Origin: Ignavibacteriales bacterium
Lineage (GTDB): Bacteria > Bacteroidota > Ignavibacteria > UBA10030
DNA: 60,238 nt
Assembly (NCBI GenBank): GCA_016186715.1
Contig: JACPLA010000085.1
Span: 1-60,238 of the forward strand
Reading direction: 5' to 3'
The notes beneath the pieces were generated by a model that was not told the DNA's origin, did not search any database, and saw only the letters and a list, made by a program, of their open reading frames with translations. Positions within the stretch are counted from its first letter, which is position 1; each line of letters opens with the position of its first letter. Position numbers and translations under genes: made by a program. Positions 3,487 to 48,885 of the stretch are shown here, piece by piece.

Positions 3487-3507
3487 TTCAAAACATTTCA
3501 CTTTTCA

Positions 3508-3680
3508 CCCTTCGACCCTTCGGCTTCGCTCAGGGTCGAACCTTGATTGCGTCGAAAGGTTCGACAGGCCCTTCGGTCTTGAGACCCTCGGTCTGCGCCG
3601 GGTTCCAAGACTCAGGGTCGAAAGACTCAGGGTGATGGTGAGCCCGTCGAACCATGATGGTGAGCCCGTCGAACCATCAC
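3508..3680. repeat. Cluster of REP/MITE-like palindromic units with a 22-bp tandem duplication
   Basis: ccttcg../ctcagggt units; tgatggtgagcccgtcgaacca twice (3633-3654, 3655-3676); ggttcgac complementary to gtcgaacc. Confidence 0.75.
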
Positions 3681-3830
3681 TTTTCACATCTCATTTCTTC
3701 CCCTCTCTCCCGTGCCCCCACGCTCCGTTGTTCTCTTTCACAACTCTTCACCCTTCACCCTTTGCTCTTTACCATTTACGCATTACTCTCTACCCTTCAC
3801 ACCTCTCATCCCCTACCTTCCCAGCCGTCT
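3681..3830. repeat. Pyrimidine-rich degenerate heptamer-period repeat tract
   Basis: ctcttca cccttca ccctttg ctcttta ccattta cgcatta ctctcta cccttca. Confidence 0.6.
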
Positions 3831-3847
3831 TTTTCCTATATTCTTTT

Positions 3848-4627
3848 GTGCGCATTTCAAAAAGCGAACTGAAATACCTTCGCTCACTCTCGCAGAAGAA
3901 AACCCGTCAGACTGAAAAGAGGTTCATCCTCGAGGGGTGGCGGGCATTGAAGGAAGCGGTAAATTCCTCTGTACGCATCGACCTTGTGGGAGCTCTTTCA
4001 CGATACCTTGAAGACGGCGATTATGCTGGGATCCTCGGCGAGGCGAAGAAAAGAAACGTCCCGATCAAGGAGCTCAGCGAGACGGAGCTGGGTCAGATCT
4101 CGGAAACGGTCCACGCCCAGGGGGTCATCGCCGTTGTGCATCAGGCAAACGTGACGCTCTCGGATCGCCTGATCGCCAACGCACGCACTGTGGTGGCGGC
4201 GGATGCCGTGAACGATCCCGGCAACCTGGGTTCCCTCATCAGGACTGCGGATTGGTTTGGTGTCGATCTGCTGCTTCTGGGCAAGGGATGCGTTGAATTG
4301 TATAACGATAAAGTGGTCAGGTCGACCGTCGGCTCTCTGTTCCATGTTTCCGCTGTTGAAGGGGTCGAACTTCCAGTTGCGCTTGGGGATCTGAAAAGGC
4401 AAGGATTTGAAATTGTCGCTCTCTCCGCGGATGGGAGGTCGGAATACAGTCAAATCCGACGGGATGGAAAGATGGTCCTGGTGGTCGGGAGCGAAGCACA
4501 CGGTGTCAGCAAAGGGGTGAAATCTTCTGCAGACGTGATCGTCAGAATTCCGAGATTCGGCCGTGCAGAATCCCTGAATGTCAGCGTAGCATGCGGAATC
4601 GTCATGGCGCATGTCAAGATGAGGTGA
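3848..4627 (+). CDS. TrmH/SpoU family RNA 2'-O-methyltransferase
   Basis: DPGNLGSLIRTADWFG, GSEAHG and ESLNVSVACGI motifs; GTG at 3848 preferred over 3632, which runs through repeats. Confidence 0.92.
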   Translation: MRISKSELKYLRSLSQKKTRQTEKRFILEGWRALKEAVNSSVRIDLVGALSRYLEDGDYAGILGEAKKRNVPIKELSETELGQISETVHAQGVIAVVHQANVTLSDRLIANARTVVAADAVNDPGNLGSLIRTADWFGVDLLLLGKGCVELYNDKVVRSTVGSLFHVSAVEGVELPVALGDLKRQGFEIVALSADGRSEYSQIRRDGKMVLVVGSEAHGVSKGVKSSADVIVRIPRFGRAESLNVSVACGIVMAHVKMR

Positions 4628-4629
4628 AC

Positions 4630-4698
4630 TTCAACATTCATTGTTCTACATTCGATATTTTCTCAAAAAACATCGAATAGTAAACACGGAATGTTGAA
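4630..4698. repeat. Imperfect intergenic inverted repeat
   Basis: ttcaacattc (4630-4639)/gaatgttgaa (4689-4698) enclosing attcgat/atcgaat. Confidence 0.55.
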
Positions 4699-36771: not shown

Positions 36772-38821
36772 ACGCCTTCTTGTCACCGCCGCACTGCCAT
36801 ACGCCAACGGGTATCTTCATCTGGGTCATATGGCCGGGGCCTATCTTCCCGCGGACCTGTACGTTCGGTACCACCGGCTCAAAGGGAAGGACGTCTTGTT
36901 TCTCTGCGGCTCGGATGAGCACGGCGTTGCAATAACCGTGACGGGGGAGCAGGAAGGGCTTACGCCGCAGCAGGTGATCGACCGCTATCATCCGGCGAAT
37001 GAAGAAGCTTTTCGGAAGTTTGGGATGAGCTTCGACCATTACTCCAGGACTTCCATCCCCCTCCATCACGAAACAACCCGTGAATTCTTTCGAAATTTCA
37101 GCGATCGTTCTCTCCTGAAAGAAAAGAGGGAAAAGCAGTTGTTCTGCGAGAAAGACAACATGTTTCTGGCGGACCGCTATGTGGAGGGAACGTGTCCGAA
37201 ATGCGGCTATGACCAGGCGAGGGGGGACCAATGCGAGAATTGCGGGAGCTGGCTCAACCAGGTCGAATTGATCAAGCCAAAGTGCAAACTGTGCGGGACC
37301 ACGCCCGTCGTGCGGGAAACGACGCATCTTTATTTTCCCCTGGGTCAGTTCCAGCGAAGGCTCGAGAAGTATGTCAAGGAGCGCAACAAACGGGACGGAT
37401 GGAAGGAAAACGTCCTTCGGTACTGCGAAAGTTGGTTCAAGGCGGGTCTCGAGGATCGGGCCGTTACGCGCGATCTCAAGTGGGGTGTTCCTGTGCCCGT
37501 GAGCGGATTTGAAAACAAGGTTATTTATGTGTGGTTCGATGCGGTTTTGGGATACATCACGGCGGGGAAAGAATGGGCCGCTCGACAGGGAAAAAAGGAA
37601 GCTTGGAAGGATTATTGGCAGGGAACCGAGACAAAATACGTCGCCTTCATCGGCAAGGACAATGTTGTCTTCCATTGTATCGTATTTCCGGCCATGCTTA
37701 TGGGATGGAACGACGGGGAAGAAGAGCAATATGTGCTCCCAGAAAACGTGCCGGCAAACGAGTTTTTGAATTTCGAGGGACAGAAGTTTTCGAAGAGCAG
37801 GGGGTGGGGCATCGATCTCAGGGATTTCCTTGATCACTTTCCGGCGGATTATCTGCGCTACGCACTGGCTGTGACATTGCCGGAATCCCGCGATTCGGAT
37901 TTCTATCTCAAGGATTTTCAAGCGCGCGTGAACAACGAACTTGCCGATATTCTCGGTAACTTCGTAAATCGTACCCTCGCATTTACACAACGCTCGTTTG
38001 GCGGAGTCGTGCCCCCCCGGCGGAAAATCGAGGCACTGGACCGGGAAATCCTAGAAATCCTTTCAACCGCGCCGTCGAACGTGGGGAATTTATTTGAGAA
38101 CTACCGGCTTCGCGACGGAGTGACGGAGGCAATGAACCTTGCCCGTGCCGCGAACAAGTACTTCAACGATAGCGAGCCGTGGAAGACTGCCAAGTCGGAT
38201 ATGGATCGATGCGGAACGACAATTCACATAGCCCTGCAGCTTGTTCGCTCGTTGGCGATTCTTTTCGAGCCGGTCACCCCACAGATCTCCCGTACGATTT
38301 GGAAGATGCTCAACCTGAAGGAACCCATTGGGCCTGGGTTCTGGGACACCGCTGCAAAACCAGGTCTGGACGAAGGCCACACGCTTAACCCACCGGAGAT
38401 ACTCGTGTCCAAAATCGAAGACAAGCAAATCGACAAAATATTGCAATCGGCAGGTGTGGAACGGTCATTGACGCCCGCAACGACGGGAATCAAGCCGACG
38501 ATCAGCTTGGAGGATTTCAAGAAAATCGACCTGCGCGTTGCGAAGGTCGTCGAAGCGGAGAAAATTCCAAAGTCCAGCAAGCTTCTGAGATTGAAGGTCG
38601 AGGTTGGCGGCGAGGTTCGTCAAATTGTCGCGGGGATTGCTCAACAATACGAACCCTCTTGGATGGTTGGAAAGCTGCTCGTCGTGGTCGCAAATCTCCA
38701 GCCCGTAACCCTGATGGGAAACGAGTCACGGGGTATGTTGTTGGCAGCCAATGCGGACGACGGAAAGCTCTCAATCGTCACAATCTTGGACGACCTTCCT
38801 CCTGGGACTGCTGTCCGCTAA
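36755..38821 (+). CDS. metG: Methionine--tRNA ligase
   Basis: ALPYANGYLHLGH, zinc knuckle, KFSKS and C-terminal tRNA-binding domain. Confidence 0.98.
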   Translation: MASPHKRLLVTAALPYANGYLHLGHMAGAYLPADLYVRYHRLKGKDVLFLCGSDEHGVAITVTGEQEGLTPQQVIDRYHPANEEAFRKFGMSFDHYSRTSIPLHHETTREFFRNFSDRSLLKEKREKQLFCEKDNMFLADRYVEGTCPKCGYDQARGDQCENCGSWLNQVELIKPKCKLCGTTPVVRETTHLYFPLGQFQRRLEKYVKERNKRDGWKENVLRYCESWFKAGLEDRAVTRDLKWGVPVPVSGFENKVIYVWFDAVLGYITAGKEWAARQGKKEAWKDYWQGTETKYVAFIGKDNVVFHCIVFPAMLMGWNDGEEEQYVLPENVPANEFLNFEGQKFSKSRGWGIDLRDFLDHFPADYLRYALAVTLPESRDSDFYLKDFQARVNNELADILGNFVNRTLAFTQRSFGGVVPPRRKIEALDREILEILSTAPSNVGNLFENYRLRDGVTEAMNLARAANKYFNDSEPWKTAKSDMDRCGTTIHIALQLVRSLAILFEPVTPQISRTIWKMLNLKEPIGPGFWDTAAKPGLDEGHTLNPPEILVSKIEDKQIDKILQSAGVERSLTPATTGIKPTISLEDFKKIDLRVAKVVEAEKIPKSSKLLRLKVEVGGEVRQIVAGIAQQYEPSWMVGKLLVVVANLQPVTLMGNESRGMLLAANADDGKLSIVTILDDLPPGTAVR

Positions 38822-38879
38822 GCGCAGATGTTTTTCGTCCTCGTGATCGTGCGCGTCCTTTTGTGCATTCCGTTGTATC

Positions 38880-38908
38880 TTGCTTAAGTTTCAGTTTTGC
38901 CCTATATT
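38880..38908 (+). promoter_or_regulatory. Promoter of the menaquinone operon
   Basis: TTGCTT-N17-TATATT, 45 bp upstream of the first gene. Confidence 0.6.
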
Positions 38909-38953
38909 TAGAGGATCAAAATTGAAACTTTTTCGCAATCCAGGGCAGTTTTC

Positions 38954-39796
38954 TTGGCACCCCTCAAGAATCTTCTCAGTTTCGTCAAAATCGAGCATAC
39001 TCTCTTTTCGCTGCCTCTGATCTACAGCGGAGTCTTCCTTGCGGCGAAGGAGCTTCCGTCTCCAACGCTATTCCTCCTTGTCTTGACGGCGGCGCTTGGT
39101 GCTCGTACCACAGCCCTGGCACTGAACCGCATCATCGATCGGGAGATTGACCGGCGGAACCCCCGAACATCTCAACGGGAACTGGCAAGCGGTAAACTGA
39201 GCGTCACAGAAGCGACTGTTGTCCTCGCTGGGGGCGTGGTTCTCTATCTTGCGTCGGCAGCGCTGATTTCGACGTTCTGCCTTCTTCTCTCGCCGATCCC
39301 GCTGTTGATTTTTACCGCGTATCCGTACATGAAGCGATTCACTCCCCTGGCTCATTTCGGGGTGGGACTGGGTCTTGCCATGGCCCCACTCGGAGGGTGG
39401 TTTGCGGTTCAACAGTCGTTTGAGAATCTTCTTCCCGGTGCCCTGCTCACTCTGTTCACTCTTTTCTGGGTGGCCGGATTCGACATCATCTACTCGACAC
39501 TCGACGAGCTGTTCGACCGCCAGGAGAACCTCTATTCCTTCAGCGCCCGATATGGAAAACGGATCGCTCTGAGGATCTCAGGATTTCTCCACGCAGCGGC
39601 GTTTGCGATTCTTTCGGCCCTCTTCTTGACATATGTTCGTGCAATCGGTTCCTTTGTGTTTCTTCTGGCTTCTGGATATTTGCTGTATCTGGAGCATAAG
39701 AAGTCGGAGGATGTGGAGCTTGCGTTTTTCAGGATTAACGCTATCGTGGGCTTCGCGGTCTTGGGGATGGTGATCAGCGGAGTCTATTTCAAATGA
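38954..39796 (+). CDS. mqnP: UbiA-like polyprenyltransferase (MqnP-type)
   Basis: KIEHTLFSLP, NRIIDREIDRRNPRT and WVAGFDIIY motifs; mqn context. Confidence 0.88.
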   Translation: MAPLKNLLSFVKIEHTLFSLPLIYSGVFLAAKELPSPTLFLLVLTAALGARTTALALNRIIDREIDRRNPRTSQRELASGKLSVTEATVVLAGGVVLYLASAALISTFCLLLSPIPLLIFTAYPYMKRFTPLAHFGVGLGLAMAPLGGWFAVQQSFENLLPGALLTLFTLFWVAGFDIIYSTLDELFDRQENLYSFSARYGKRIALRISGFLHAAAFAILSALFLTYVRAIGSFVFLLASGYLLYLEHKKSEDVELAFFRINAIVGFAVLGMVISGVYFK

Positions 39797-40344
39797 GGAT
39801 CGTCCTTGGCATCTCGGGGTCTTCGGGAGCCGTGTATGCACGGGAATTTCTCAGTCTTTGTCCGGGCGACAAGTTTCTGATTGTGAGCAAATGGGGGAAA
39901 GTCCTGCTAAAAAATGAATTAGGGATCAGCGAACGGGACCTTCAGCCGTTGGTGAAACGACAGTTCTCCGACGATGATTTGACCGCCCCCGTCGCCTCCG
40001 GGTCGAACCGGTTCGATGCCCTGGTCGTTCTTCCCTGTTCGACCTCGACGCTGGGAAAGATTGCATCCGGCATTGGCGATACGCTCATTACCCGCGCTGC
40101 TCAGGTTGCGCTCAAGGAGCGATATAAGTTGGTCCTGTGTTTGCGTGAGACACCAATGTCCACGGTGTCTCTGGAACAGTGTGCCAGGCTTTCCCGGGAC
40201 GGTGCGATCATAATGCCGATTTCCCCGCCCTTGTATTTTGTGCCCAAGTCCGTGGACGAGTACGTCCAGGCGTTCGTGCACAAGGTTCTTGGGATCATCG
40301 GAGTGCGCGAAGCCAGGGGGTGGCGCGCCGAGGAATTGGAATAG
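39793..40344 (+). CDS. ubiX: UbiX flavin prenyltransferase
   Basis: GISGSSG, ASGS, PCS, LITRAA and RETP motifs. Confidence 0.93.
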   Translation: MRIVLGISGSSGAVYAREFLSLCPGDKFLIVSKWGKVLLKNELGISERDLQPLVKRQFSDDDLTAPVASGSNRFDALVVLPCSTSTLGKIASGIGDTLITRAAQVALKERYKLVLCLRETPMSTVSLEQCARLSRDGAIIMPISPPLYFVPKSVDEYVQAFVHKVLGIIGVREARGWRAEELE

Positions 40345-40346
40345 CG

Positions 40347-42107
40347 ATGTTTCAGGCGCTCGGTGAATTTGTCCGCCACCTCGAATCAATCGGCGAGCTT
40401 CACAGGGTCAAGAGGGAAGTCGACCCGAAACTGGAGATTACCGAGATTGCCACGCGGGCTCTTCGTGAAGGGAAACCCGCACTGCTCTTTGAAAATGTAA
40501 AGGGCGCACGATTTCCTCTGGTCGTGAACGTGTATGCAAGCGACAAGCGTCTTGAACACGCTCTGGGGACACATCCGGAGCGGCTGGGGAGGGACTTGAT
40601 CGGCTTCATTGAACAGATGATGCCACCCCGCTTCGGTCCGCTGTGGGAACACCGTAGCCTCACACGTCGATTGATGGGCGCACGTGCAGTGTCTGTTGCT
40701 TCGGGGATTTCGCAGGAGGTCGTCTCGCAAGGCTCGTTTAATGATCTGCCAATCCAGGTCTGCTGGCCTAAAGACGGGGGCAGGTTTCTGACCCTCGGCC
40801 AGGTTGTCACGTATGATCCTTCCGATGGGAAGAGAAACATCGGCGTGTACAGGATGCACGTCTATGGAGACAGGAAGACGGGAATGCACTGGCAGATCCA
40901 GAAAGGGGGCGGATTTCATTATCACCGGGCCGAGCAACGCCGTCAGGATCTCGAGGTAGCCGTTGCGCTGGGAACCGATCCGGCAACGCTTCTGGCAAGC
41001 GTTGCTGCACTCCCCGAAGGAATCGATGAAGCGTTGTTTGCCGCGTTCCTTCGTGGAAGGCCGACCCGATTCGTACACGGGAAGTCCCTCTCAATCCTGG
41101 TTCCCGCAGCGGCGGAATTTGTGCTTGAGGGAACAGTCCCGCAGGGAGAACGAAGAAAAGAGGGACCGTTTGGGGATCATTTTGGACACTATTCGCATGC
41201 GGCGTCCTTTCCGGTTTTTCATTTGAAAACGATGACACATCGCAGGCGTCCCGTGTACCCCGCGACTGTTGTCGGCATTCCTCCCATGGAAGATAAGTTT
41301 CTTGGAGACGCTACGCAGCAGATCCTTGGTCCACTTGCAAGAGTGATTCACAAGGAAGTCAAGGATGTATGGGCGTACTATGAGGCGGGTTTCCATAATC
41401 TGCTCGTCGTCTCTGTCGAGGAGCGTTACCACAAAGAAGCGATGAAAGCAGCGTTGGGACTTCTTGGAACTGGTCAATTGTCGCTGACAAAGTGCCTGAT
41501 CCTTGTTTCGGAAGAGGTCGATCCCAGAACCTGGAAAGCTGTCCTGGGTGCGGTGAGAGAGCATTTTGATCCATACCGGGACTTTGTTTTGCTGCCAAAG
41601 GTTCCCCTGGACACTCTGGACTTCACCAGCTTTACGATGGAGTTGGGAAGCAAGATGATTCTCGACGCGACAAGGAAGGAGCGACCTCGTCGGACCAGAC
41701 GTGCGATCCGCCTGGACGCCAAAGGGGTAAGAAGCATGGATCGGCGAATTGTTGACGCTCATGCTGTGGAGGAAACGCTGCTCCTGGTCAAGGCAAAAAA
41801 GGAGGGGAGAGCCGTTGTCGAGAAACTCGTCAAACGGAAAGAACTCCAATATTTCAAGATCATCGCGGTAGTAAGTGAAGACGTGGACATCCGCAACCAG
41901 GAGAATTCGATCTGGGGTGTGTTCACGCGATTCGACTGCGAGCGCGATGTCGTCTTTTCTGAACAGACGATGATGGGAATTGCCCCCATTTACCGCGGAG
42001 TGATGGGGATAGATGCAACATGGAAACGCGGATATCCTGAACCTCTCATCATGGATCATCGGATCGTCAGGAAAGTCGATGACCGGTGGGAGCAATACTG
42101 GAGATGA
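40347..42107 (+). CDS. mqnL: UbiD-family menaquinone biosynthesis decarboxylase (MqnL-type)
   Basis: WPKDGGRFLT, NIGVYR, EGPFGDHFGHY and GIDAT motifs. Confidence 0.9.
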   Translation: MFQALGEFVRHLESIGELHRVKREVDPKLEITEIATRALREGKPALLFENVKGARFPLVVNVYASDKRLEHALGTHPERLGRDLIGFIEQMMPPRFGPLWEHRSLTRRLMGARAVSVASGISQEVVSQGSFNDLPIQVCWPKDGGRFLTLGQVVTYDPSDGKRNIGVYRMHVYGDRKTGMHWQIQKGGGFHYHRAEQRRQDLEVAVALGTDPATLLASVAALPEGIDEALFAAFLRGRPTRFVHGKSLSILVPAAAEFVLEGTVPQGERRKEGPFGDHFGHYSHAASFPVFHLKTMTHRRRPVYPATVVGIPPMEDKFLGDATQQILGPLARVIHKEVKDVWAYYEAGFHNLLVVSVEERYHKEAMKAALGLLGTGQLSLTKCLILVSEEVDPRTWKAVLGAVREHFDPYRDFVLLPKVPLDTLDFTSFTMELGSKMILDATRKERPRRTRRAIRLDAKGVRSMDRRIVDAHAVEETLLLVKAKKEGRAVVEKLVKRKELQYFKIIAVVSEDVDIRNQENSIWGVFTRFDCERDVVFSEQTMMGIAPIYRGVMGIDATWKRGYPEPLIMDHRIVRKVDDRWEQYWR

Positions 42108-43993
42108 AGTACATGAACGATCGTTTTCACCCTCGGGACAAGAACCTCGTTCCCATCTGGGAAAAAATCCAGAAAGGGGACCGTCTTACCTTTGAAGACG
42201 GTGTGGCCATGTTTCGCTCTTCTGACGTCATTTCGCTCGGGAAGATGGCGCACAATGTTCAGCGTCGGAGAAGCGGCGACGCGGTTTATTTCGTGCTCAA
42301 TCAGAAAATTGAGCCGACAAATGTCTGTGTCTTGTCCTGCAAGTTTTGTGACTTCGCGACGAAGCAGGGGAGCGCGGATGCCTACGAGATGACGATTCAC
42401 GAAATTGTCCATAAGCTGACTCCGGAGATCCATGAAGTCCACATCACCGGCGGTCTTCATCCCGACTGGGAATGGGAATATTACCTTGAAATGCTTCGGC
42501 AGATCAGGAAAAATCTCCCCAACGCGGATATTAAGGCGTTTACCGCGGTAGAAATCGACTTCTTCCATAAGAAATTCCGTATGCCGATCGAAGAGGTGCT
42601 GATCCAGCTGAAAGATGCCGGTCTCAGGACGATGCCGGGCGGTGGTGCGGAGGTGTTTTCCGAGCGCGTCCGCAGGCTTCTTTTCAACCAGAAAATCGGA
42701 GCAAGAACCTGGTTTGAAGTGCATAGGACGGCTCACAAGCTTGGTATTCCGACAAACAGTACGATTCTCTACGGCCACATTGAGACCATCGAGGAGCGGG
42801 TGGAGCACATGCTGAAGCTGCGGGAAGCCCAGGATGAAACGGGAGGCTTCCTCACGTTTATTCCCCTCGCATTTCAGCCGGGTGATACCGGAATCAAGCC
42901 CCGGGGCCGGTTTACGTCGGCTATCGACGATCTCAAGATGATCGCAATTTCGAGGCTGGTGTTGGACAATTATCCTCATATCAAAGCCTATTGGGTCATG
43001 CTCACGGAGGAGGTTGCGTCTGTTGCGCTGAACTTCGGCGCGGATGATATTGATGGAACCGTGGGGGGAGAAAAGATCGCTCATGATGCAGGCGCGATCA
43101 GTCCAATGACCCTGGCAAAAGAGCAGATCGTAAAAATCATCAGGGATGCCGCGAAGATTCCCGTTGAGCGAGACGTGTATTATAACCCCCTTAAGCTCCA
43201 TGCAAGTAATATTGTCGGCAAGATACCTTATTTGAATTCGGTTCCGTTCTATGAACATCTTGAAAAGCGCGAGTTTAAAATAATGCCGATGGCGCCCAGA
43301 AGGATGGGGCTTCTGGCCGCGGAGGGGCAGGTCGATGCAGGTCTGTTTTCCCTGGTTGATTATCTCAATCAGCAGTCATCGCTGGAGATGATGAACTATG
43401 GCATAGCGACGCGGGATCAGGTGAGAAGTGTTCTCCTGTTCTCTAACCATGGTTGGGGAGATCTTGAGGGGAAAACAATCGGCATCACCGACGACACTGC
43501 CACTTCGGTTCATTTGTTGGGCGTTTTGCTGGAAAAGAAATATGGGGTGAAAGCGAACCTGGAACGAATGCACAGCGGAGTCAATGATGTGCGGAGTTTC
43601 GATGCGGTTCTTCTTATCGGAGACGAAGCGTTAAAAAGCAGCAAAACGGGGCTTAGCGGCTTTGAGATTGTGTATGATCTTGCGGAGGAATGGTACACAT
43701 GGCAGCAACTGCCGTTTGTCTTCGCCGTGTGGGCCGTCCGGAAATCCATCGCTGAAGGCCAAAAGAATGAATTGAAAAGGTTGGTCGAACAGTCCCTGGA
43801 AACAGGAGAGACGAATTATGAAACCATTGGCGCCCTGCATGCACGGCGACTGGGATTAACCTCTCAGGAAGCGGCTGAATATCTTGGAGGATTCAACTAT
43901 CGCTTGGGCGGGCGAGAGCTACTTGCCATCGAGACCTTCAAGTCGTTCCTCCCACATGTCAAGGATTTCTTGAATCAGAAAACGAAGGTGTGA
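42104..43993 (+). CDS. mqnE: Fusion of aminofutalosine synthase MqnE and chorismate dehydratase MqnA
   Basis: N-part NVCVLSCKFCDF, MPGGGAE, HIKAYW, FGADDIDGT; C-part GKIPYLNSVPF, VRSVLLFS, ATSV, LIGDEAL, LPFVFAVW. Confidence 0.93.
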   Translation: MKYMNDRFHPRDKNLVPIWEKIQKGDRLTFEDGVAMFRSSDVISLGKMAHNVQRRRSGDAVYFVLNQKIEPTNVCVLSCKFCDFATKQGSADAYEMTIHEIVHKLTPEIHEVHITGGLHPDWEWEYYLEMLRQIRKNLPNADIKAFTAVEIDFFHKKFRMPIEEVLIQLKDAGLRTMPGGGAEVFSERVRRLLFNQKIGARTWFEVHRTAHKLGIPTNSTILYGHIETIEERVEHMLKLREAQDETGGFLTFIPLAFQPGDTGIKPRGRFTSAIDDLKMIAISRLVLDNYPHIKAYWVMLTEEVASVALNFGADDIDGTVGGEKIAHDAGAISPMTLAKEQIVKIIRDAAKIPVERDVYYNPLKLHASNIVGKIPYLNSVPFYEHLEKREFKIMPMAPRRMGLLAAEGQVDAGLFSLVDYLNQQSSLEMMNYGIATRDQVRSVLLFSNHGWGDLEGKTIGITDDTATSVHLLGVLLEKKYGVKANLERMHSGVNDVRSFDAVLLIGDEALKSSKTGLSGFEIVYDLAEEWYTWQQLPFVFAVWAVRKSIAEGQKNELKRLVEQSLETGETNYETIGALHARRLGLTSQEAAEYLGGFNYRLGGRELLAIETFKSFLPHVKDFLNQKTKV

Positions 43994-44827
43994 ATGTCCG
44001 ATACTCTTGTCAAAAGGTTTGAGAATCTGGTTCAACAGGGAACGCAGCTCGCGCCACAGGGCGGATTCGAGTTCTCGGGGTATAACGCCCGTTTACAGAA
44101 TAAGTATCTTGAATGGCGCAAATCATGCCTCGAAGCGCTGGAACAGGCGGGACCAATCGGCGTTCCATACAAGAGCAAGATTCTCGGGGATCCAAACGGC
44201 GGTTTTTTCTTTCAGGCGTCGGCGCAACTGATTGTCAATCAAATGAAGGAATTATTCGAGAAGATCAAAGCCTCCCCGGAGCTTGCGGCGGCTCCAGCCC
44301 AAGCCCAGCCCTCGCCCGTGGTAAACTCTCAAGGTGTAACGGGTTCGGAGACTGGAGGAGCGCGAGTTCTCAAACCACCGCCCAAAAAGGGCTCCGCGGT
44401 TCCTCCGGCCATCCCGCCGCCGGTACCGGCCGGCAGCTGGGAAAAAAAAGTTTATGTGATCGGCGAAGATATGGATCCGCTCAGGCAGCAGTTGTCACAG
44501 TTCCTCCAGGAAATCGGTCTTGAGGAAGTGCCATTGAACCGGGAACACGGTAAGATGCTTGCGCTGGACAAGATCTCTCACGAAAACGATATCCGATTTG
44601 CCTTTTTTGTTTTCAATTCCGATGACCTGGCTTATGCCATGTTCGAGCTTGGCCATTTTGTTGGGAAACTGGGGGCGGGACGGGTGACCGTTCTTCATAT
44701 GACCGACGTTGACTTCCCAAAGAATGTGCCGGGGATCAACCTCAAACCGATCGTTGTGAAACTCGAAGAGGCAAGCCTGTCGCTGATGAGGGAACTCAAA
44801 TCGGTCGGATACCAGATTTCCCTTTAG
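43994..44827 (+). CDS. Protein with C-terminal divergent TIR-like (CAP12/Pycsar-type) domain
   Basis: KVYVI..FLQEIGL..FAFFVF..DD..FELGHFVGKLG..RV..L..DFP..G..RELKSVGY resembles PF10137-type TIR; Pro-rich linker. Confidence 0.7.
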   Translation: MSDTLVKRFENLVQQGTQLAPQGGFEFSGYNARLQNKYLEWRKSCLEALEQAGPIGVPYKSKILGDPNGGFFFQASAQLIVNQMKELFEKIKASPELAAAPAQAQPSPVVNSQGVTGSETGGARVLKPPPKKGSAVPPAIPPPVPAGSWEKKVYVIGEDMDPLRQQLSQFLQEIGLEEVPLNREHGKMLALDKISHENDIRFAFFVFNSDDLAYAMFELGHFVGKLGAGRVTVLHMTDVDFPKNVPGINLKPIVVKLEEASLSLMRELKSVGYQISL

Positions 44828-44834
44828 AATTGTT

Positions 44835-45929
44835 ATGACTCTTCACGAAATATTCGACGACGTTCGAGCGGGAAAGCGCCTGACAGGTGATCGGGGTCTG
44901 TATTTGCTCAAGCATGCCGAGCTTTTGGATCTCGGAGATCTGGCAAATGAAATTCGGTTCAAAAACAACCCCAAGCCTTGGGTTACTTTCGTTGTCGACA
45001 CAAATCCCAACTACACGAATATCTGTACGGTCGATTGCATCTTCTGTGCCTTCTACCGTCATCCCGGCGAAGAAGGGGAGTACACGTATAGTGTCGATCA
45101 CATGATCCAGAAATTCAAAGAATCGGCGGCTCAGGGTGTCACGACGGTTCTTCTTCAAGGCGGGGTCAATCCTTCACTTCCTTTCGAATACTACACCGAA
45201 CTTGTTCGAAGAACCGTTGCTGAGGTTCCGGAAGTGTACCCGCATTTCTTCTCTACGTCAGAAATTATCGGAATGGCAGAGGTTGCCGGGATGAATGTCC
45301 GTGAGGTCTTGAAGCGTCTCTGGGATGCGGGACTACGCTCCATCCCGGGTGGAGGGGCGGAGATTTTATCCGACCGCGTGAAGAAAAAGATCAGCAGCAA
45401 GAAGGGGACGTCGGCGGATTGGCTGGGGGTGATGCGCGAGGCCCATCTCCTGGGTTACAAGTCCACAGCCACGATGATGTACGGACATCTTGAGACCGAC
45501 GAAGATATCATCGAACATCTTGAACAGGTTCGTTCCCTGCAGGATGAGACTCGAGGCTTTACCGCTTTCATCCCATGGTCGTTCAAGCCCGGAAACACGC
45601 CGCTTGAAAAGATCATTCCGCACTACGCAACGCCGACCCGCTACCTGCAAATGATATCGTTTTCACGGATCTACCTGGACAACTTTCAGCACATTCAGGC
45701 TTCGTGGTTCTCGGAGGGGAAGAAAACGGGGCAGATTGCGCTTCATTTTGGCGCCGATGATTTTGGAGGCACCCTTCTGGAGGAAAATGTTCACGCGGCG
45801 GCGAATTTTGTGAACAAAACGAATACGGAGGAGTGCAAACAACTTATTCGTGAGGCGGGATTTACCCCGGCACAGCGGACAACACTGTATGAAATTCTCT
45901 CGGCGGAGGAGCAGGAAGCGGCGGCCTAG
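44835..45929 (+). CDS. mqnC: Cyclic dehypoxanthinyl futalosine synthase
   Basis: NYTNICTVDCIFCAFYR, LLQGG, PGGGAEIL, FIPWSF, IQASW and GADDFGGTLLEENV motifs. Confidence 0.95.
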   Translation: MTLHEIFDDVRAGKRLTGDRGLYLLKHAELLDLGDLANEIRFKNNPKPWVTFVVDTNPNYTNICTVDCIFCAFYRHPGEEGEYTYSVDHMIQKFKESAAQGVTTVLLQGGVNPSLPFEYYTELVRRTVAEVPEVYPHFFSTSEIIGMAEVAGMNVREVLKRLWDAGLRSIPGGGAEILSDRVKKKISSKKGTSADWLGVMREAHLLGYKSTATMMYGHLETDEDIIEHLEQVRSLQDETRGFTAFIPWSFKPGNTPLEKIIPHYATPTRYLQMISFSRIYLDNFQHIQASWFSEGKKTGQIALHFGADDFGGTLLEENVHAAANFVNKTNTEECKQLIREAGFTPAQRTTLYEILSAEEQEAAA

Positions 45930-45946
45930 CGTTGATTCCGGAAAAG

Positions 45947-46209
45947 AACCAAAAAGAAACAACGCAGAGGCTCAGAGGACGCGGAGGCACGCAGAGGGTT
46001 TTTCATTTGCAGCAGTCTCTTTCATCTGGGGAGGGTGAGACGGGGAGCTCATATAATGCCACCAGCTTGACGCTCTGCGATTTCTCCCCGCCTGCCTGTT
46101 GGTACAACCGAGGCCGGGCAGGTGCGACCTCCCCGCCAGCCTTGTTGAACTCTATGGGGCGGGCTGGCGCGACTCTGCGTTGAAAAACCAAAAAGACACA
46201 ACGCAGAGG
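45947..46209. repeat. Repeat-rich spacer between convergent mqn operons
   Basis: aaccaaaaagaaacaacgcagagg (45947) near-identical to aaccaaaaagacacaacgcagagg (46186); cgcagagg-type short repeats; hairpins cgccagcc/ggctggcg and ctctgcgttg/caacgcagag. Confidence 0.65.
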
Positions 46210-46298
46210 TGTCAAGGACTTAGCAAAGTCCTCCGAGGATTTTCGGTGCTCTCCACAGCTTTGCGACGAAAACCTCCAGACGTGTCTACAGGATGGCG

Positions 46299-47225
46299 TT
46301 AGGATGGGCTGTCAATCAGGCCCGCCAGATTTTCGTAGAAGATCTTCTTGATCTCCGGGGTGGGGATTCGCATTTCCTGCACGAGCTTGAGTTGGTTGTC
46401 AAGAATATCGTAGCGATAACCCCTCGGCATCATTCCCGAGTCGGATCCAAACAAGATTCTACCCGCACCGAACACTTCGAGCGCCTTTTGGTAAACCTTT
46501 CTCAGGTCGGGTTTCTCGGGATGGTGTTCCATCCAGGAGTTTGATCCGGCCGTGTCGACGTAGACATTCGGACATTGTTTTCCGACCTCCAGGGTTTCGG
46601 TAAACTTCCCGGCGCCGAAGTTCGGGATAACCCATCTGACTTGTGGGAACTTCTTCGCAACGGGAATCAGGTCTCGCGGATCGGCAAACGCGTCGTTGAT
46701 CACCGTCGGGACACCGGCAAAGTCGCGCGGTCTGATCAGTAATTTCCCGAAATGGACAAACACGATCCCCTTTGACTCCTGAACCAGGTTGTACAACGGA
46801 TAGAGCCATTCGTCGTTCACACCGATTTGATACAATGATGGGTACAGGAAGATTCCCCGAAGTTTGTCCTGCTTGAGCCGTTTTTCCGTGTTCTCCATCA
46901 ACATGTTTGAATTCGGGTCCACGGTGAAGAATCCGGTAAAACGTTTCGGATACGCCTGAACCGCCTGAACAACGGAGTCCTCATCTCCCGGCATGCTGCC
47001 GATGAGTATCAGACGCTCGATCTTCCATTTATCGATGGCGTCCGCCCATCGCTTCGCAAGCTGAACCGGATCTTCGCCGGGGATTTCAATATGACCCTTC
47101 ATGGCGATGTTCTTCAGCTCTGAACTGATATCTGCCCGGTTCGGTTTTTGCTTGACTAGAAAGCGAAAGAAGGAATTGGAATAGAAGTGGACGTGAGCGT
47201 CGAATATCTTGAACAATCCGATCAT
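46299..47225 (-). CDS. Amidohydrolase family protein (Amidohydro_2-like)
   Basis: DAHVH, VHFG, PNVYVDTAG and RILFGSD motifs. Confidence 0.88.
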   Translation of the reverse strand: MIGLFKIFDAHVHFYSNSFFRFLVKQKPNRADISSELKNIAMKGHIEIPGEDPVQLAKRWADAIDKWKIERLILIGSMPGDEDSVVQAVQAYPKRFTGFFTVDPNSNMLMENTEKRLKQDKLRGIFLYPSLYQIGVNDEWLYPLYNLVQESKGIVFVHFGKLLIRPRDFAGVPTVINDAFADPRDLIPVAKKFPQVRWVIPNFGAGKFTETLEVGKQCPNVYVDTAGSNSWMEHHPEKPDLRKVYQKALEVFGAGRILFGSDSGMMPRGYRYDILDNQLKLVQEMRIPTPEIKKIFYENLAGLIDSPS

Positions 47226-47243: not shown

Positions 47244-48086
47244 TTAGACAAAAATGAGTTCCGGCACAGCGGGAATGAGCTTCTTTTCCGATCCGAGCGT
47301 GAAAAGCGTTTCAAGAGCCTTCCTGCCCCGTTCTCCCATATCGACAGTGAGTTCGCTGACATACATCCTCACAAAGCGCCCGCCTAAATCTTCCCCGATG
47401 CCGCGTCCGTATTGCAGGGCATACGGGATAGCCTCCTTCTGATGAGTGTATCCGAAATGAATGCTTTGTCTCAGACCGTACGACAGCTTTCGGGCCAGAT
47501 CGATTCCCAGATCTTTTCGAACGACATCGAGCCCTAGGGGGAGGGGGAGACCATTGAACTTCCGAGCCCAGAATTCCCCGAAATCGACAATTTTTCTAAA
47601 CCCCTGTTCCGCGTAGGTGATCTGCCCCTCGTGAATCAGCAGCCCGGCGTCGAATTCGCCGCTTGCAACGCGATCCATGATCTGGTCAAACGGGATATCA
47701 ACCTGATCGACTCCATCGGTGAAGAGTTTGAAGAGGAGAGTGGCTGTTGTAAGCTCCCCGGGAGTTGCCACCCTTTTTCCGGCGAGGTCATCAAGGGAAG
47801 AATACTGTTTGGAGACAAGAACGGGGCCATATCCCTCGCCCATGCTCGCGCCGGTGGTCATGATCCAATATCTGTTTGCGACGTGAGCGTATGCATGAGC
47901 CGAGATTGCCGAGACTTCCAATTCACCCTTTAATGCCCTCAGGTTGAGCGATTGGATATCCTCGAGCAGGTGATCGATCGTAACTCCTTCCAGCTTGACT
48001 TTGCCGCTTGAAAGACCATAAAACATGAACGCGTCGTCCGGATCGGGGCTGTGCCCAACCCGGATCACTTTATCCCTGAGTGGCAT
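47244..48086 (-). CDS. mqnD: 1,4-dihydroxy-6-naphthoate synthase
   Basis: GHSPDPDDAFMF, DIQSLN, GYGP, PGELTTA, IHEG and PLPLG motifs; start may extend to 48119 or 48140. Confidence 0.93.
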   Translation of the reverse strand: MPLRDKVIRVGHSPDPDDAFMFYGLSSGKVKLEGVTIDHLLEDIQSLNLRALKGELEVSAISAHAYAHVANRYWIMTTGASMGEGYGPVLVSKQYSSLDDLAGKRVATPGELTTATLLFKLFTDGVDQVDIPFDQIMDRVASGEFDAGLLIHEGQITYAEQGFRKIVDFGEFWARKFNGLPLPLGLDVVRKDLGIDLARKLSYGLRQSIHFGYTHQKEAIPYALQYGRGIGEDLGGRFVRMYVSELTVDMGERGRKALETLFTLGSEKKLIPAVPELIFV

Positions 48087-48885
48087 CTGCGGACGTGCCG
48101 TTTGTTCCCTTCGTTCCATAGTAGATTGTTGCGATGCCAAAGGTTAGTTCGTGGAATTGGACGCCGGAAAAACCTGCGGTTTGCAGGATGGTCAGAATCT
48201 CCCTCCTGTCGGGAAATTCGCGGATTGTGTTGGGGAGGTACTCGTAAGCATCACGGTTCTTTGAAACAAGGCCTCCAACGAAGGGCAGAATATGTTTCGA
48301 ATAGAAGCTATAGAGCTTCCGAATCGGAAAGAAGTGCGGCCGTGAAAACTCGAGAATAAGAACGGCGCCGCCCGGTCGAAGGACCCGACACATTTCCGCA
48401 AGTCCGCCCTCCAGCGACGAAAAATTCCGAATGCCAAACGCGACGATTACGGCGTCGAACATTTTGTCCGAAAACGGCAACTGTTCCGCCGCCCCTGCTT
48501 GAAAGGAAACCATAGTTTCGAGGTTCCGACGTACGGCCTTCCGGGCGGCCACGCGCAGCATCTCTGTGGATACATCGATTCCAATGATTTCGCGGGGACG
48601 AAGCCGGGAGGCCTCAAAAGCAAAATCTCCCGTCCCCGTTGCCACGTCGAGAATGCTCTGTGGCTTCAAGGGTCGAAGAAGACGAACAGCCCTTTTTCGC
48701 CACAGGATGTCAATGCCGGAACTCAGCAGGTGATTGAGGAAATCATACCTGCCGGCGATTCGATCAAAGAGGTTGCGAACGTACAGAGGATCGTATGGAG
48801 TGCGATGATTCGGCAAGGAATCTTCCGGAATATGGGCAAGGTCACCGGTGTTTTGTGTTGTGATTGTTACTGGCTGTGAATGCAC
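48070..48885 (-). CDS. ubiE: Demethylmenaquinone methyltransferase UbiE/MenG
   Basis: FDRIAGRYDFLNHLLS, LDVATGTGD, AFGIRN, RVLRPGG and AYEYLP motifs. Confidence 0.95.
   Translation of the reverse strand: MHSQPVTITTQNTGDLAHIPEDSLPNHRTPYDPLYVRNLFDRIAGRYDFLNHLLSSGIDILWRKRAVRLLRPLKPQSILDVATGTGDFAFEASRLRPREIIGIDVSTEMLRVAARKAVRRNLETMVSFQAGAAEQLPFSDKMFDAVIVAFGIRNFSSLEGGLAEMCRVLRPGGAVLILEFSRPHFFPIRKLYSFYSKHILPFVGGLVSKNRDAYEYLPNTIREFPDRREILTILQTAGFSGVQFHELTFGIATIYYGTKGTNGTSADATQG

What the first reader, a model, noticed from the sequence alone, without database searches (positions are those of the whole stretch)
43994..44827. TIR-like domain protein embedded in the futalosine operon at the position of the missing MqnB
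Seen: the ATG directly follows the mqnE-mqnA stop (TGAATG) and mqnC starts 7 bp after its stop. Residues about 150-277 follow the CAP12/Pycsar-type TIR pattern and keep the putative catalytic Glu (FELG, about E218), but the usual loop with the RxNV motif between DD and ELG is deleted. No cyclase, STING/cNMP sensor or other defence gene is nearby, and no mqnB/MTAN is recognisable in the window. Known: TIR domains are Glu-dependent N-glycohydrolases (NADases) related in fold to nucleoside deoxyribosyltransferases, and the step between MqnE and MqnC is N-glycosidic hydrolysis of (amino)futalosine. Inference: this may be a domesticated TIR acting as a non-orthologous aminofutalosine nucleosidase, or a scaffold or NAD-linked regulator of menaquinone synthesis.
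Basis: partly seen in the sequence, partly recalled or inferred. Interest (0 to 1): 0.82.

Follow-up and report, generated by a model that had tools for sequence, protein, structure and literature searches.

The report
Domesticated TIR-like gene in menaquinone operon
A gene descended from bacterial immune TIR proteins has become a fixed, conserved resident of the vitamin K2 (menaquinone) operon in one group of Ignavibacteria, but comparative genomics argues that it is not the missing futalosine nucleosidase.

Summary
ORF 43994-44827 (+, 277 aa) abuts the MqnE-MqnA fusion (TGAATG), and MqnC starts 7 bases after its stop. Residues 153-251 match PF10137 (35.4 bits; cut-off 24.7). Glu218 (MFELG) is kept and the canonical loop with RARQNV is deleted. 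The genome (94.6% complete) has no MqnB or MTAN.

The nucleosidase reading is not supported:
- 32 of 71 MqnC-positive genomes of the class sample have neither an MqnB-like hit nor this gene.
- 20 of 73 related loci with an informative upstream flank have lost the mqnE block, in at least 5 separate changes on a MetRS tree. The gene stays intact there (19 of 20), keeps Glu (18 of 18 aligned) and shows dN/dS 0.10-0.18, while a neighbouring mqnC decays in 4 of them.
- 7 of 7 such genomes searched lack intact mqnE/mqnC.
- A syntenic orthologue (G393) has Ala in place of the Glu.

Best reading: a defence-type (PDC-S35/PF10137) protein with a four-helix N-domain and a TIR domain was inserted in the mqnEA|mqnC slot. 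A sister family carries toxin-antitoxin cassettes in that slot. The protein lost the canonical TIR motifs and became a core, lineage-specific gene whose role does not depend on futalosine chemistry. It is probably an accessory or regulatory factor linked to late menaquinone steps. The biochemical function is inferred, not shown.

The parts
43994..44827 (+). TIR-like gene (277 aa), the finding
   Evidence: ORF; PF10137 35.4 bits; 492 homologues at E<=1e-3, and the 120 listed are 61-100% identical and nearly all full length
43994..44278 (+). N-terminal four-helix-bundle domain (residues 1-95) with two nearly invariant loops (GGFEFSGYNARLQNKYLxWRK; DxNGGxFFQxS)
   Evidence: pLDDT above 90, helices 2-22, 35-51, 53-64, 74-93; conservation in A1, A3, A4; no Pfam family; only generic helical-bundle fold matches, best Z 9.1; the same domain precedes canonical PF10137 TIR domains in P0140, P0141, P0144, P0149, P0151, P0252
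44279..44440 (+). Disordered Pro/Ala-rich linker (residues 96-149) with a conserved RVLKPPPK stretch in the f1 family
   Evidence: pLDDT below 50 for residues 100-148; mean identity 35% within f1-type rows against 65-69% for the two domains; P128-K131 nearly invariant
44441..44824 (+). Degenerate TIR-like (flavodoxin-fold) domain, residues 150-277
   Evidence: PF10137; PDC-S35 63.5 bits; Foldseek best match TIR-STING 9lmq, E 6.9e-4; VIA 9lmq_A Z 11.9, rmsd 2.9, 120 aligned, but CheY-like receivers score Z 10-11
44645..44647 (+). Codon of Glu218 (MFELG), the position of the TIR catalytic Glu
   Evidence: Aligned with the FEFG Glu of Cap12/TIR-STING; Glu in 72 of 72 aligned relatives; Ala in G393 and in P0134, P0136, P0138
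42086..43993 (+). MqnE-MqnA fusion (aminofutalosine synthase + PF02621 domain)
44835..45929 (+). MqnC (cyclic dehypoxanthinyl futalosine synthase)
38954..39796 (+). MqnP-type UbiA prenyltransferase
   Evidence: PF01040; TIGR01475 262 bits; MqnP models 178-212 bits, below their cut-offs
39793..40344 (+). UbiX-like flavoprotein
   Evidence: PF02441 112.6 bits
40338..42107 (+). UbiD-like decarboxylase (the listed ORF starts at 40179; the real start is probably near 40338)
   Evidence: PF01977, PF20696, PF20695; start inferred from the overlap with the UbiX-like gene
46299..47225 (-). Amidohydro_2 protein, co-retained with the TIR-like gene in the f1 family
   Evidence: PF04909 86.5 bits; kept at 72% identity in mqn-lost G102, G151, G155 and next to the gene in 12 of 80 loci
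47244..48140 (-). Stand-alone PF02621 protein, inferred MqnD
   Evidence: PF02621 242.4 bits; the MqnD assignment is inferred because MqnA is fused to MqnE
48070..48885 (-). UbiE/MenG demethylmenaquinone methyltransferase
   Evidence: PF01209 216.7 bits; TIGR01934 263 bits
36755..38821 (+). Methionyl-tRNA synthetase, upstream boundary of the gene string; directly precedes the TIR-like gene where the mqn block is lost
   Evidence: Same-length orthologues carry PF09334 in L023 and L024; tblastn

Best explanation
The gene encodes a two-domain soluble protein. It has a highly conserved four-helix-bundle N-domain, a disordered linker, and a TIR-like C-domain that descends from the PF10137 / PADLOC PDC-S35 group of candidate single-gene defence proteins. 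Inferred history: a defence-type 'four-helix bundle + TIR' gene was inserted at the mqnEA|mqnC junction in the ancestor of two Ignavibacteria families (f1 and f3 of one order). It lost most canonical TIR motifs (HGHD, TIIEK, the RARQNV loop, PSD) and became a core gene. Shown: it is present in 17 of 17 f1 and 9 of 10 f3 genomes sampled and in no other family sampled in the phylum. It is conserved at 65-69% identity in both domains within f1. It is retained intact under purifying selection after at least five separate losses of the futalosine ring-synthesis genes. Its function therefore does not depend on aminofutalosine or futalosine. Inferred mechanism, not shown: it is no longer an NAD-consuming immune effector. 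It acts as an accessory or regulatory factor tied to the late, route-independent part of menaquinone metabolism (prenylation and methylation, or quinone homeostasis). The invariant loops of the N-domain would bind a partner or ligand, and the TIR-like domain would bind an adenine-nucleotide-type ligand or self-associate. This link is suggested because the gene stays beside menaquinone late-step genes of either route: MqnP or a MenA-like prenyltransferase, and UbiE.
For: Homology and fold. Motif loss against canonical relatives that share the same N-domain; PF10137 scores fall from 87-129 bits (canonical) to 35 (window), 22.9 (P0123) and no hit (P0134, P0138). Defence-type origin: 0 of 80 metagenome loci of canonical relatives lie next to mqn genes, and their neighbours are DUF5677, PIN, DUF7019 and MBL proteins. 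In G120 (f4) the same mqnEA|mqnC slot holds ParE/RelB-like and PIN toxin-antitoxin modules. Core status. Independence from the futalosine pathway: 20 of 73 loci with an informative upstream flank have MetRS, not mqnE/A, upstream. There are at least 5 state changes on a MetRS tree of 50 rows, forced by starred branches. The ORF is intact in 19 of these 20 loci and Glu218 is present in 18 of 18 aligned. dN/dS is 0.10-0.18 inside mqn-lost clades against 0.03-0.13 in mqn-kept pairs. mqnC next to the gene is broken in L048, L052, L073, L087 while the gene is whole. 7 of 7 mqn-lost genomes searched have no intact MqnC/MqnE. G093 and G102 also lack MqnA/D, MenB and MenD. Link to late steps: a MenA-like prenyltransferase lies directly upstream (L048, L074, L066) or downstream (L095) of the gene. 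Amidohydro_2 plus UbiE are the next mapped genes downstream in 12 of 80 loci. mqn-lost genomes carry MenA-like genes that the window's genome lacks.
Against: No experiment or binding evidence supports any partner. Glu218 is strictly kept (72 of 72) and D211 nearly so (71 of 72) in the main clade. The C-domain is as conserved as the N-domain. Both points fit a retained catalytic or ligand-binding pocket better than a pure scaffold. Gene order within a single order may partly reflect shared descent rather than function. In 5 of the 20 mqn-lost loci (L074, L082, L084, L088, L095) none of the window's menaquinone genes mapped downstream of the gene, although L074 and L095 have the MenA-like gene beside it. 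In L088 the neighbours scanned downstream are DapF-like and YegS-like proteins. Sister families make do without the gene, so it is not generally needed for menaquinone. The fold match to TIR is not separable from CheY-like receivers by Z-score alone.
Confidence: 0.5

Rival explanations
1. One reading: a Glu-dependent N-glycohydrolase dedicated to aminofutalosine or futalosine, replacing MqnB between MqnE and MqnC.
For: The position exactly between mqnEA and mqnC with 0 and 7 bases of spacing. Spacing to mqnC is 6-20 bases in most related loci. No MqnB or MTAN in the genome or in any of the 11 f1/f3 genomes of the class sample. Glu218 is invariant in the main clade. TIR and nucleoside 2-deoxyribosyltransferase-like folds do N-glycosidic chemistry (established knowledge); DNPH1 and MilB appear among weaker fold matches.
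Against: 32 of 71 MqnC-positive genomes of the class have neither an MqnB-like hit nor this gene, including sister families f2, f4 and f5. The gap in the pathway is therefore wider than the gene's range. The gene persists intact, with dN/dS 0.10-0.18, in lineages with no mqnE/A/C/D, while the adjacent mqnC decays. G393 keeps mqnEA - gene - mqnC and has no MTAN or MqnB (only two PNPs), yet its gene has Ala for the Glu and has lost DD. Residues that canonical PF10137 members conserve around the Glu are lost.
Confidence: 0.08
2. A broad adenosyl-nucleoside hydrolase (an MTAN analogue) that clears 5'-deoxyadenosine or MTA and can also cleave aminofutalosine. It would stay useful after the mqn genes are lost.
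For: This reading survives the retention test, because radical-SAM by-products exist in every genome. MTAN is absent. Glu218 and D211 are conserved. The gene lies between two radical-SAM enzymes.
Against: No metabolic gap requires it. AhcY is present in 5 of 5 genomes tested. Two PunA/MTAP-superfamily phosphorylases are present in 10 of the 11 genomes searched with PF01048, and G084 has one; the second copy in G102 carries a TAG. Sister families with the same enzyme set lack the gene. The G393 branch has Ala at the Glu position. Canonical substrate-side motifs are deleted.
Confidence: 0.12
3. Still an immune or abortive-infection TIR effector (PDC-S35-like) that merely sits in an essential operon.
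For: The closest profile is PADLOC PDC-S35 (63.5 bits). Canonical relatives with the same N-domain lie in variable, defence-like contexts. The slot accepts toxin-antitoxin cassettes in G120. Glu is retained.
Against: Presence in 17 of 17 and 9 of 10 genomes of two families, single copy, fixed position and 61-75% identity among the listed relatives is unlike the patchy distribution usual for defence genes (established knowledge). HGHD, the RARQNV loop and PSD are lost. The PF10137 score drops towards or below the cut-off across the clade.
Confidence: 0.08
4. A housekeeping function unrelated to menaquinone, co-transcribed with holB-metG. The menaquinone neighbourhood would be historical accident.
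For: In all 20 mqn-lost loci the gene follows MetRS, with a gap of 3-120 bases in 12 of them and the MenA-like gene in between in at least 3 of the rest. In L088 no menaquinone gene was found nearby. Sister families make menaquinone without the gene.
Against: A MenA-like prenyltransferase lies on either side of the gene in two different arrangements. Amidohydro_2 plus UbiE remain beside it after separate deletions of mqnC and mqnD. Neither point is decisive.
Confidence: 0.17

Closest known systems
PADLOC PDC-S35 candidate single-gene defence proteins / generic PF10137 (COG4271-type) proteins of about 255-290 aa
   Same: A C-terminal TIR-like domain of the same family (63.5 bits to PDC-S35; PF10137). 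The overall plan is an N-terminal helical domain plus a C-terminal TIR. Relatives P0140, P0141, P0144, P0149, P0151 and P0252 even share the same N-domain.
   Different: The canonical motifs HGHD, TIIEK, the RARQNV loop and PSD are lost. The gene has a fixed position in a biosynthetic operon and is core in two families. There is a long disordered linker. None of 80 canonical relatives' loci is mqn-linked.
Cap12 (TIR-STING) of CBASS and PycTIR of Pycsar
   Same: The TIR fold is the best structural match (9lmq, 7un8). The FE(L/F)G Glu aligns. PycTIR scores 25 bits.
   Different: No STING, SAVED or cNMP sensor domain and no cyclase nearby. NCBIfam Cap12 models score 15 bits against cut-offs of 450. 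The loop preceding the Glu is deleted.
MqnB futalosine hydrolase and MTAN (PF01048, PNP_UDP_1)
   Same: Only the proposed reaction (N-glycosidic cleavage of a 5'-modified purine nucleoside) and the operon position between MqnE and MqnC.
   Different: The fold and family are unrelated: PF01048 matches in the genome are only the two PNP loci. Phyletic pattern, retention after mqn loss and the Glu-to-Ala orthologue argue against functional equivalence.
UbiJ/UbiK-type non-enzymatic accessory factors of quinone biosynthesis (recalled from the E. coli ubiquinone literature; no call)
   Same: A works-like analogy only: a small soluble non-enzymatic protein encoded with quinone biosynthesis genes.
   Different: No sequence or fold relation was tested or expected. 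No binding was shown here.

Membership tests
PF10137 CAP12/Pycsar-type TIR domain | Sequence match above the Pfam gathering score | tested here: met
   35.4 bits against cut-off 24.7, residues 153-251. Relatives of the clade fall to 22.9 bits (P0123) or no hit (P0134, P0138).
PF10137 CAP12/Pycsar-type TIR domain | TIR (flavodoxin-like) fold | tested here: met
   C-domain pLDDT about 90. The best Foldseek and VIA matches are TIR-STING (E 6.9e-4; Z 11.9, rmsd 2.9, 120 aligned). CheY-like receivers are within about 1 Z unit.
PF10137 CAP12/Pycsar-type TIR domain | Catalytic Glu in the (F/L)E(L/F)G motif | tested here: met
   E218 aligns with the Cap12 FEFG. Glu in 72 of 72 relatives. It is replaced by Ala in G393, P0134, P0136, P0138.
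PF10137 CAP12/Pycsar-type TIR domain | Other residues invariant in canonical members (HG of VHGHD, T of TPDD, R-x-N-V before the Glu, SD of PSD) | tested here: not met
   A2, A5 and A6: HG is replaced by GE, T by N, the R-N-V stretch is deleted with its loop, and SD is replaced by KN. Only DD, E, G and the later G are kept.
PF10137 CAP12/Pycsar-type TIR domain | NAD+ glycohydrolase activity | not testable with these tools
   Needs an enzyme assay.
CBASS (Cap12) or Pycsar (PycTIR) defence system | Adjacent nucleotide cyclase (CD-NTase or PycC) | tested here: not met
   The 9 neighbouring proteins are menaquinone enzymes by Pfam and NCBIfam. None has a PADLOC cyclase hit. Genes further away were not scanned.
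CBASS (Cap12) or Pycsar (PycTIR) defence system | Fused signal-sensing domain (STING, SAVED, cNMP-binding) | tested here: not met
   The N-domain has no Pfam match at E<=0.1 and folds as a four-helix bundle. Cap12 equivalog models score 15 bits against 450.
PADLOC PDC-S35 (candidate defence) | Full-length profile match and variable defence-island context | tested here: not met
   Only residues 150-276 match (63.5 bits). The context is a conserved biosynthetic operon.
MqnB / MTAN functional class (futalosine or aminofutalosine nucleosidase) | PNP_UDP_1 fold (PF01048) | tested here: not met
   PF01048 matches in the genome are only C35 and C136. The protein's only Pfam family is PF10137.
MqnB / MTAN functional class (futalosine or aminofutalosine nucleosidase) | Co-occurrence with MqnE/MqnC and complementarity with MqnB/MTAN across genomes | tested here: not met
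   9 of 71 MqnC-positive genomes have the gene, 30 have an MqnB-like hit and 32 have neither. The gene is present in 7 of 7 searched genomes that lack intact MqnE/MqnC.
MqnB / MTAN functional class (futalosine or aminofutalosine nucleosidase) | Hydrolysis of futalosine or aminofutalosine | not testable with these tools
   Needs an enzyme assay or genetic complementation.

The most novel reading that the evidence does not exclude
In the main clade the retained Glu218/Asp211 pocket is catalytic on a new substrate. The protein would then be a TIR-fold adenosyl-nucleoside hydrolase recruited from immunity into primary metabolism. It would cleave aminofutalosine and radical-SAM by-products such as 5'-deoxyadenosine in MTAN-less Ignavibacteria. 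The Glu-to-Ala branch would be a secondary loss.
Probability: 0.12. Interest if true: 0.85.

Novelty: new variant of a known kind. Interest (0 to 1): 0.5.

Why it matters
Bacterial TIR proteins are known as immune effectors or signal producers. Here a PF10137/PDC-S35-type TIR protein has instead become a core, vertically inherited gene inside a cofactor-biosynthesis operon. It has stayed under purifying selection across two bacterial families, and it survives repeated loss of the pathway genes around it. That makes it a clean natural example of the domestication of an immune module into housekeeping biology. It also gives a tractable test: knockout, menaquinone profiling, and NADase or nucleosidase assays of wild type against E218A.

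The work also shows that the nucleosidase step of the futalosine pathway has no recognisable enzyme in 32 of 71 MqnC-positive genomes of the class sample. This is an open pathway hole that the TIR-like gene does not explain.

I found no paper linking TIR domains to menaquinone biosynthesis. 'futalosine' + 'TIR' gave one unrelated paper, and 'TIR domain' + 'menaquinone biosynthesis' gave none. The library does not cover most subscription journals.

Tried and rejected
N-domain identity. Pfam gave nothing. A profile search of PDB sequences gave only non-significant TorD-like hits (2idg, 2xol) at E 0.39-0.4. A fold search of the N-domain alone gave generic helical bundles, best Z 9.1, which the tool says is not meaningful for helical folds. 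The ESM Atlas gave unnamed clusters and HEPN/DUF4145-like models at TM 0.77, which are leads only.

Second PNP paralogue as the missing nucleosidase. Two PunA-type PNPs are present in all 5 mqn-positive genomes probed. Two are also present in 4 of 4 mqn-lost genomes (one with a TAG), and one in the classical-pathway genome G084. There is no clear correlation, so I did not pursue it.

SAH-disposal gap. AhcY is present in 5 of 5 genomes, so there is no gap.

Binding to UbiE. Complex prediction with alignments A7 and A3 returned 'no answer' (score 0.00; controls not folded). This is not evidence either way.

Expression. The look-up of sequencing runs listed 4 DNA holders from one groundwater study and no RNA holder.

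Promoter and terminator scan of 38500-46500: the counts equal the shuffled expectation.

Literature. I saw search listings only. I read passages of PMC3914697 (the MqnB = PNP_UDP_1 definition and the phylum table) and one methods passage of bioRxiv 10.64898/2025.12.03.692087. Supplementary files were not consulted. That preprint's cluster tables might list this family.

Rows dropped. In the TIR-like alignment and tree, 9 of 80 loci were left out as partial, truncated, frameshifted or only partly matched: L059, L080, L090, L091, L097, L099, L100, L102, L105. In the MetRS tree, 50 of 81 rows were used; a row needed a single MetRS match spanning more than 600 query residues at 50% identity or more, without stops. 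dN/dS pairs with saturated dS (printed as -1) were not used. The greedy ORF caller mis-called the Amidohydro_2 region of L023, and I replaced it with the ORF listing.
Full report
OBSERVATION

ORF 43994-44827 (+) encodes 277 residues. Its ATG directly follows the TGA of the upstream gene. Its TAG is followed by seven bases and then the ATG of the next gene.

The upstream gene is an MqnE-MqnA fusion (TIGR03700 467.5 bits; PF02621 on residues 377-620). The downstream gene is MqnC (TIGR03699 462.6 bits). The wider string runs MetRS, MqnP-type UbiA, UbiX-like, UbiD-like, MqnE-MqnA, the TIR-like gene, MqnC. On the other strand lie Amidohydro_2, a stand-alone PF02621 protein (inferred MqnD) and UbiE/MenG.

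Residues 153-251 match PF10137 at 35.4 bits (cut-off 24.7). PADLOC's PDC-S35 profiles match residues 150-276 at up to 63.5 bits, and PycTIR at 25 bits. Glu218 in MFELG aligns with the FEFG Glu of Cap12/TIR-STING.

The HGHD, TIIEK and PSD motifs are also gone.

The whole genome (2.39 Mb, 145 contigs, 94.57% complete) has no TIGR03664 match at E<=1. Its only PF01048 proteins are two PunA-type purine nucleoside phosphorylases.

ANATOMY

An AlphaFold2 model built on 64 aligned relatives has mean pLDDT 80.7. It has three parts:
- a four-helix N-domain (residues 1-99, pLDDT above 90);
- a disordered linker (residues 100-148, pLDDT below 50);
- an alpha/beta C-domain (residues 150-277, pLDDT about 90).

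The C-domain's best Foldseek matches are TIR-STING chains (9lmq, E 6.9e-4; 7un8). The exhaustive VIA search also puts 9lmq_A first (Z 11.9, rmsd 2.9, 120 aligned). CheY-like receivers follow within about one Z unit, so the TIR assignment rests on sequence homology plus fold.

The N-domain alone (pLDDT 90.8) matches only generic helical bundles (best Z 9.1). Two loops at one end of the bundle are nearly invariant: GGFEFSGYNARLQNKYLxWRK and DxNGGxFFQxS.

The same N-domain precedes fully canonical PF10137 TIR domains (87-129 bits) in P0140, P0141, P0144, P0149, P0151 and P0252. The ancestral form was therefore a 'four-helix bundle + canonical TIR' protein.

DISTRIBUTION AND SYNTENY

A word-indexed search found 492 homologues at E<=1e-3. 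The best 120 are 61-100% identical, nearly all full-length, and named Ignavibacteria or Bacteroidota where named at all.

In a 151-genome sample of the class the protein is found in f1 (7 of 7 plus the window's genome) and f3 (3 of 4), plus one weak hit in f19. In a 401-genome sample of the phylum, a divergent member as query hits only f1 (17 of 17) and f3 (9 of 10).

A scan of 185,579 species genomes found 271 relatives, and I analysed the best 80 loci. By tblastn with the window's proteins:
- 53 loci have MqnE/A upstream;
- 20 have MetRS upstream;
- 7 have no upstream flank.

51 loci show the full MqnE/A - gene - MqnC order. This order holds down to 35-40% identity in f3. By contrast, 0 of 80 metagenome loci of canonical PF10137 relatives lie beside mqn genes. 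Neighbours of the full-length canonical forms are DUF5677, PIN, DUF7019 and MBL-fold proteins.

In G120 (family f4) the same mqnEA|mqnC slot holds two type II toxin-antitoxin modules, ParE with a RelB-like antitoxin and PIN with its partner. In most other families mqnEA and mqnC are directly adjacent (coordinates). The slot therefore accepts selfish or defence-type cassettes, and the TIR-like gene most likely arrived that way.

TESTS OF THE NUCLEOSIDASE HYPOTHESIS

(1) Complementarity. In the class sample, 71 of 151 genomes have MqnC (E<=1e-60). 39 of 151 have a TIGR03664-like hit at E<=1e-5, none above the cut-off. Among the 71 MqnC-positive genomes, 30 have an MqnB-like hit, 9 have the TIR-like gene and 32 have neither. 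The 32 include families f2, f4, f5, f13, f14, f23 and most of f17. Five such genomes probed with PF01048 have only two PNPs each, like the window's genome. The missing-MqnB problem is thus much wider than the gene's range.

(2) Retention without substrate. The 20 MetRS-upstream loci have lost UbiA-UbiX-UbiD-MqnEA.
- In 11 of them, plus L059, which has no upstream flank, mqnC and mqnD are also gone while the TIR-like gene, Amidohydro_2 and UbiE remain.
- 4 keep an mqnC split into two pieces.
- In 5, none of the window's genes mapped downstream.

G093 and G102 (100% and 99% complete) have no MqnC/MqnE at E<=1e-60, only a weak third PF02621 paralogue, and no MenB or MenD above cut-off. Of five further mqn-lost genomes, four have no MqnC/E match at E<=1e-20. 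The fifth, a complete chromosome, has only the broken mqnC.

The TIR-like ORF is uninterrupted in 19 of the 20 loci; L105 is frameshifted. Glu218 is present in 18 of 18 aligned.

On a MetRS tree of 50 rows (17 lost, 33 kept) the state changes at least 5 times, forced by well-supported branches. The lost loci are likewise scattered on the TIR-like tree.

Within mqn-lost clades with unsaturated dS, dN/dS is 0.10-0.18 (dS 0.39-1.08). In mqn-kept pairs it is 0.03-0.13. Selection is perhaps slightly relaxed but clearly purifying. The decaying mqnC beside an intact TIR-like gene is an internal control at the same locus.

(3) The Glu. It is invariant in the main clade (72 of 72) and kept in 8 of 9 f3 genomes. 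In G393, which keeps mqnEA - gene - mqnC and has only two PNPs, the motif reads LMALGY and the DD is lost. Three cluster representatives show the same (P0134, P0136, P0138). In that branch the domain no longer scores in Pfam.

WHAT IT MORE LIKELY DOES

The mqn-lost lineages carry MenA-like prenyltransferases. Their best NCBIfam matches are 1,4-dihydroxy-2-naphthoate polyprenyltransferases, below the cut-offs. The window's genome has no match to the MenA-like query at E<=1e-10.

In L048, L074 and L066 this gene lies directly upstream of the TIR-like gene, and in L095 directly downstream. G093 and G153 have PAS-fused versions elsewhere. Amidohydro_2 is kept at about 72% identity in mqn-lost f1 genomes but was not found in f3 or f2 representatives.

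The gene thus stays associated with late, route-independent menaquinone genes while the ring-synthesis route is lost or swapped. This fits an accessory or regulatory role in menaquinone metabolism. It does not prove that role, because gene order within one order is partly inherited and some loci show no menaquinone neighbour.

Both domains are about equally conserved: 69% and 65% identity within f1-type rows, and 41% and 42% between f1-type and f3-type rows. The strict retention of Glu218 and Asp211 leaves room for residual or altered catalysis. I therefore keep a broad adenosyl-nucleosidase reading alive at about 0.12. No metabolic gap demands it, however: AhcY is present in 5 of 5 genomes, and two PNPs are present in 10 of the 11 genomes searched with PF01048.

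COMPARISON AND NOVELTY

By sequence and fold the C-domain is a member of PF10137. It fails the family's other conserved motifs, and it is not part of a CBASS or Pycsar system: it has no cyclase nearby and no sensor domain.

Its nearest described kin are PADLOC's PDC-S35 candidates. It differs from them by motif loss, a long linker, a core-gene distribution and a fixed place in a biosynthetic operon.

I found no paper connecting TIR domains with menaquinone or futalosine genes. The library lacks most subscription journals, and supplements were closed.

I rate it a new variant of a known kind: a domesticated immune-type TIR protein of unknown housekeeping role.

VERDICT

'Domesticated TIR' is supported. 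'Non-orthologous aminofutalosine nucleosidase' is not supported: about 0.08 for the strict form and 0.12 for the broad form. Interest is moderate (0.5). The main claim that made the finding exciting is weakened. The domestication itself, and the unassigned nucleosidase step in many Ignavibacteria, are real and testable.

Noticed in passing
L025 (G120:C3) 3342-4693, minus strand: In a sister family (f4) the mqnEA|mqnC junction holds two type II toxin-antitoxin modules: ParE toxin with a RelB-like antitoxin, and a PIN protein with a small DUF6290-like partner. This is the same slot that holds the TIR-like gene in f1 and f3.
   Followed up: yes
class sample of 151 genomes: 32 of 71 MqnC-positive genomes have neither an MqnB/MTAN-like hit (TIGR03664, E<=1e-5) nor the TIR-like gene. 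The futalosine or aminofutalosine nucleosidase step has no recognisable enzyme in families f2, f4, f5, f13, f14, f23 and most of f17.
   Followed up: partly
G000:C35:438-1181 (L001) and G000:C136:37985-38764 (L002): Two PunA-type purine nucleoside phosphorylase paralogues; the second has an N-terminal extension (342-aa ORF). The pair recurs in all 5 other mqn-positive genomes probed and in 4 of 4 mqn-lost ones (one with a TAG). The classical-pathway genome G084 has one.
   Followed up: partly
window 46299-47225 (-): An Amidohydro_2 (PF04909) gene with no NCBIfam assignment lies between mqnC and the inferred mqnD. It is kept at about 72% identity in mqn-lost f1 genomes and next to UbiE after mqnD was deleted from between them. 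It was not found in f3 (G393) or f2 (G001) representatives.
   Followed up: partly
L048 6636-7529, L074 4874-5767, L066 7044-7937, L095 8873-9766; L116 1135-2394, L115 1351-2625: mqn-lost relatives carry MenA-like prenyltransferases (best matches DHNA polyprenyltransferase, below cut-offs). A 297-aa form lies beside the TIR-like gene, and a PAS-domain fusion of 419-424 aa lies elsewhere in G093 and G153. G093 and G102 have no MenB or MenD above cut-off, which suggests naphthoate salvage.
   Followed up: partly
L048 8860-9953, L052 8976-9937, L073 8794-9349, L087 8965-10057: The mqnC next to an intact TIR-like gene is split into two tblastn pieces (open frames of 279 and 111 aa in G151). These are apparent pseudogenes in lineages that lost mqnE.
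   Followed up: partly
G000:C18:13472-14221: A third, weaker PF02621 (VitK2_biosynth) paralogue (102 bits) lies outside the operon. Weaker PF02621 matches are also the only ones in mqn-lost G093 and G102.
   Followed up: no
window 40179-42107 (+): The listed UbiD-like ORF starts at a GTG inside the UbiX-like gene, and its first ~55 residues are low-complexity. The real start is probably near 40338.
   Followed up: no
family f7 genomes (e.g. G047:C72:22948-23976): In family f7 the single MqnC-like match lies in open frames of about 670-880 aa and scores below the MqnC cut-off. This suggests a fused or different radical-SAM architecture in that family.
   Followed up: no
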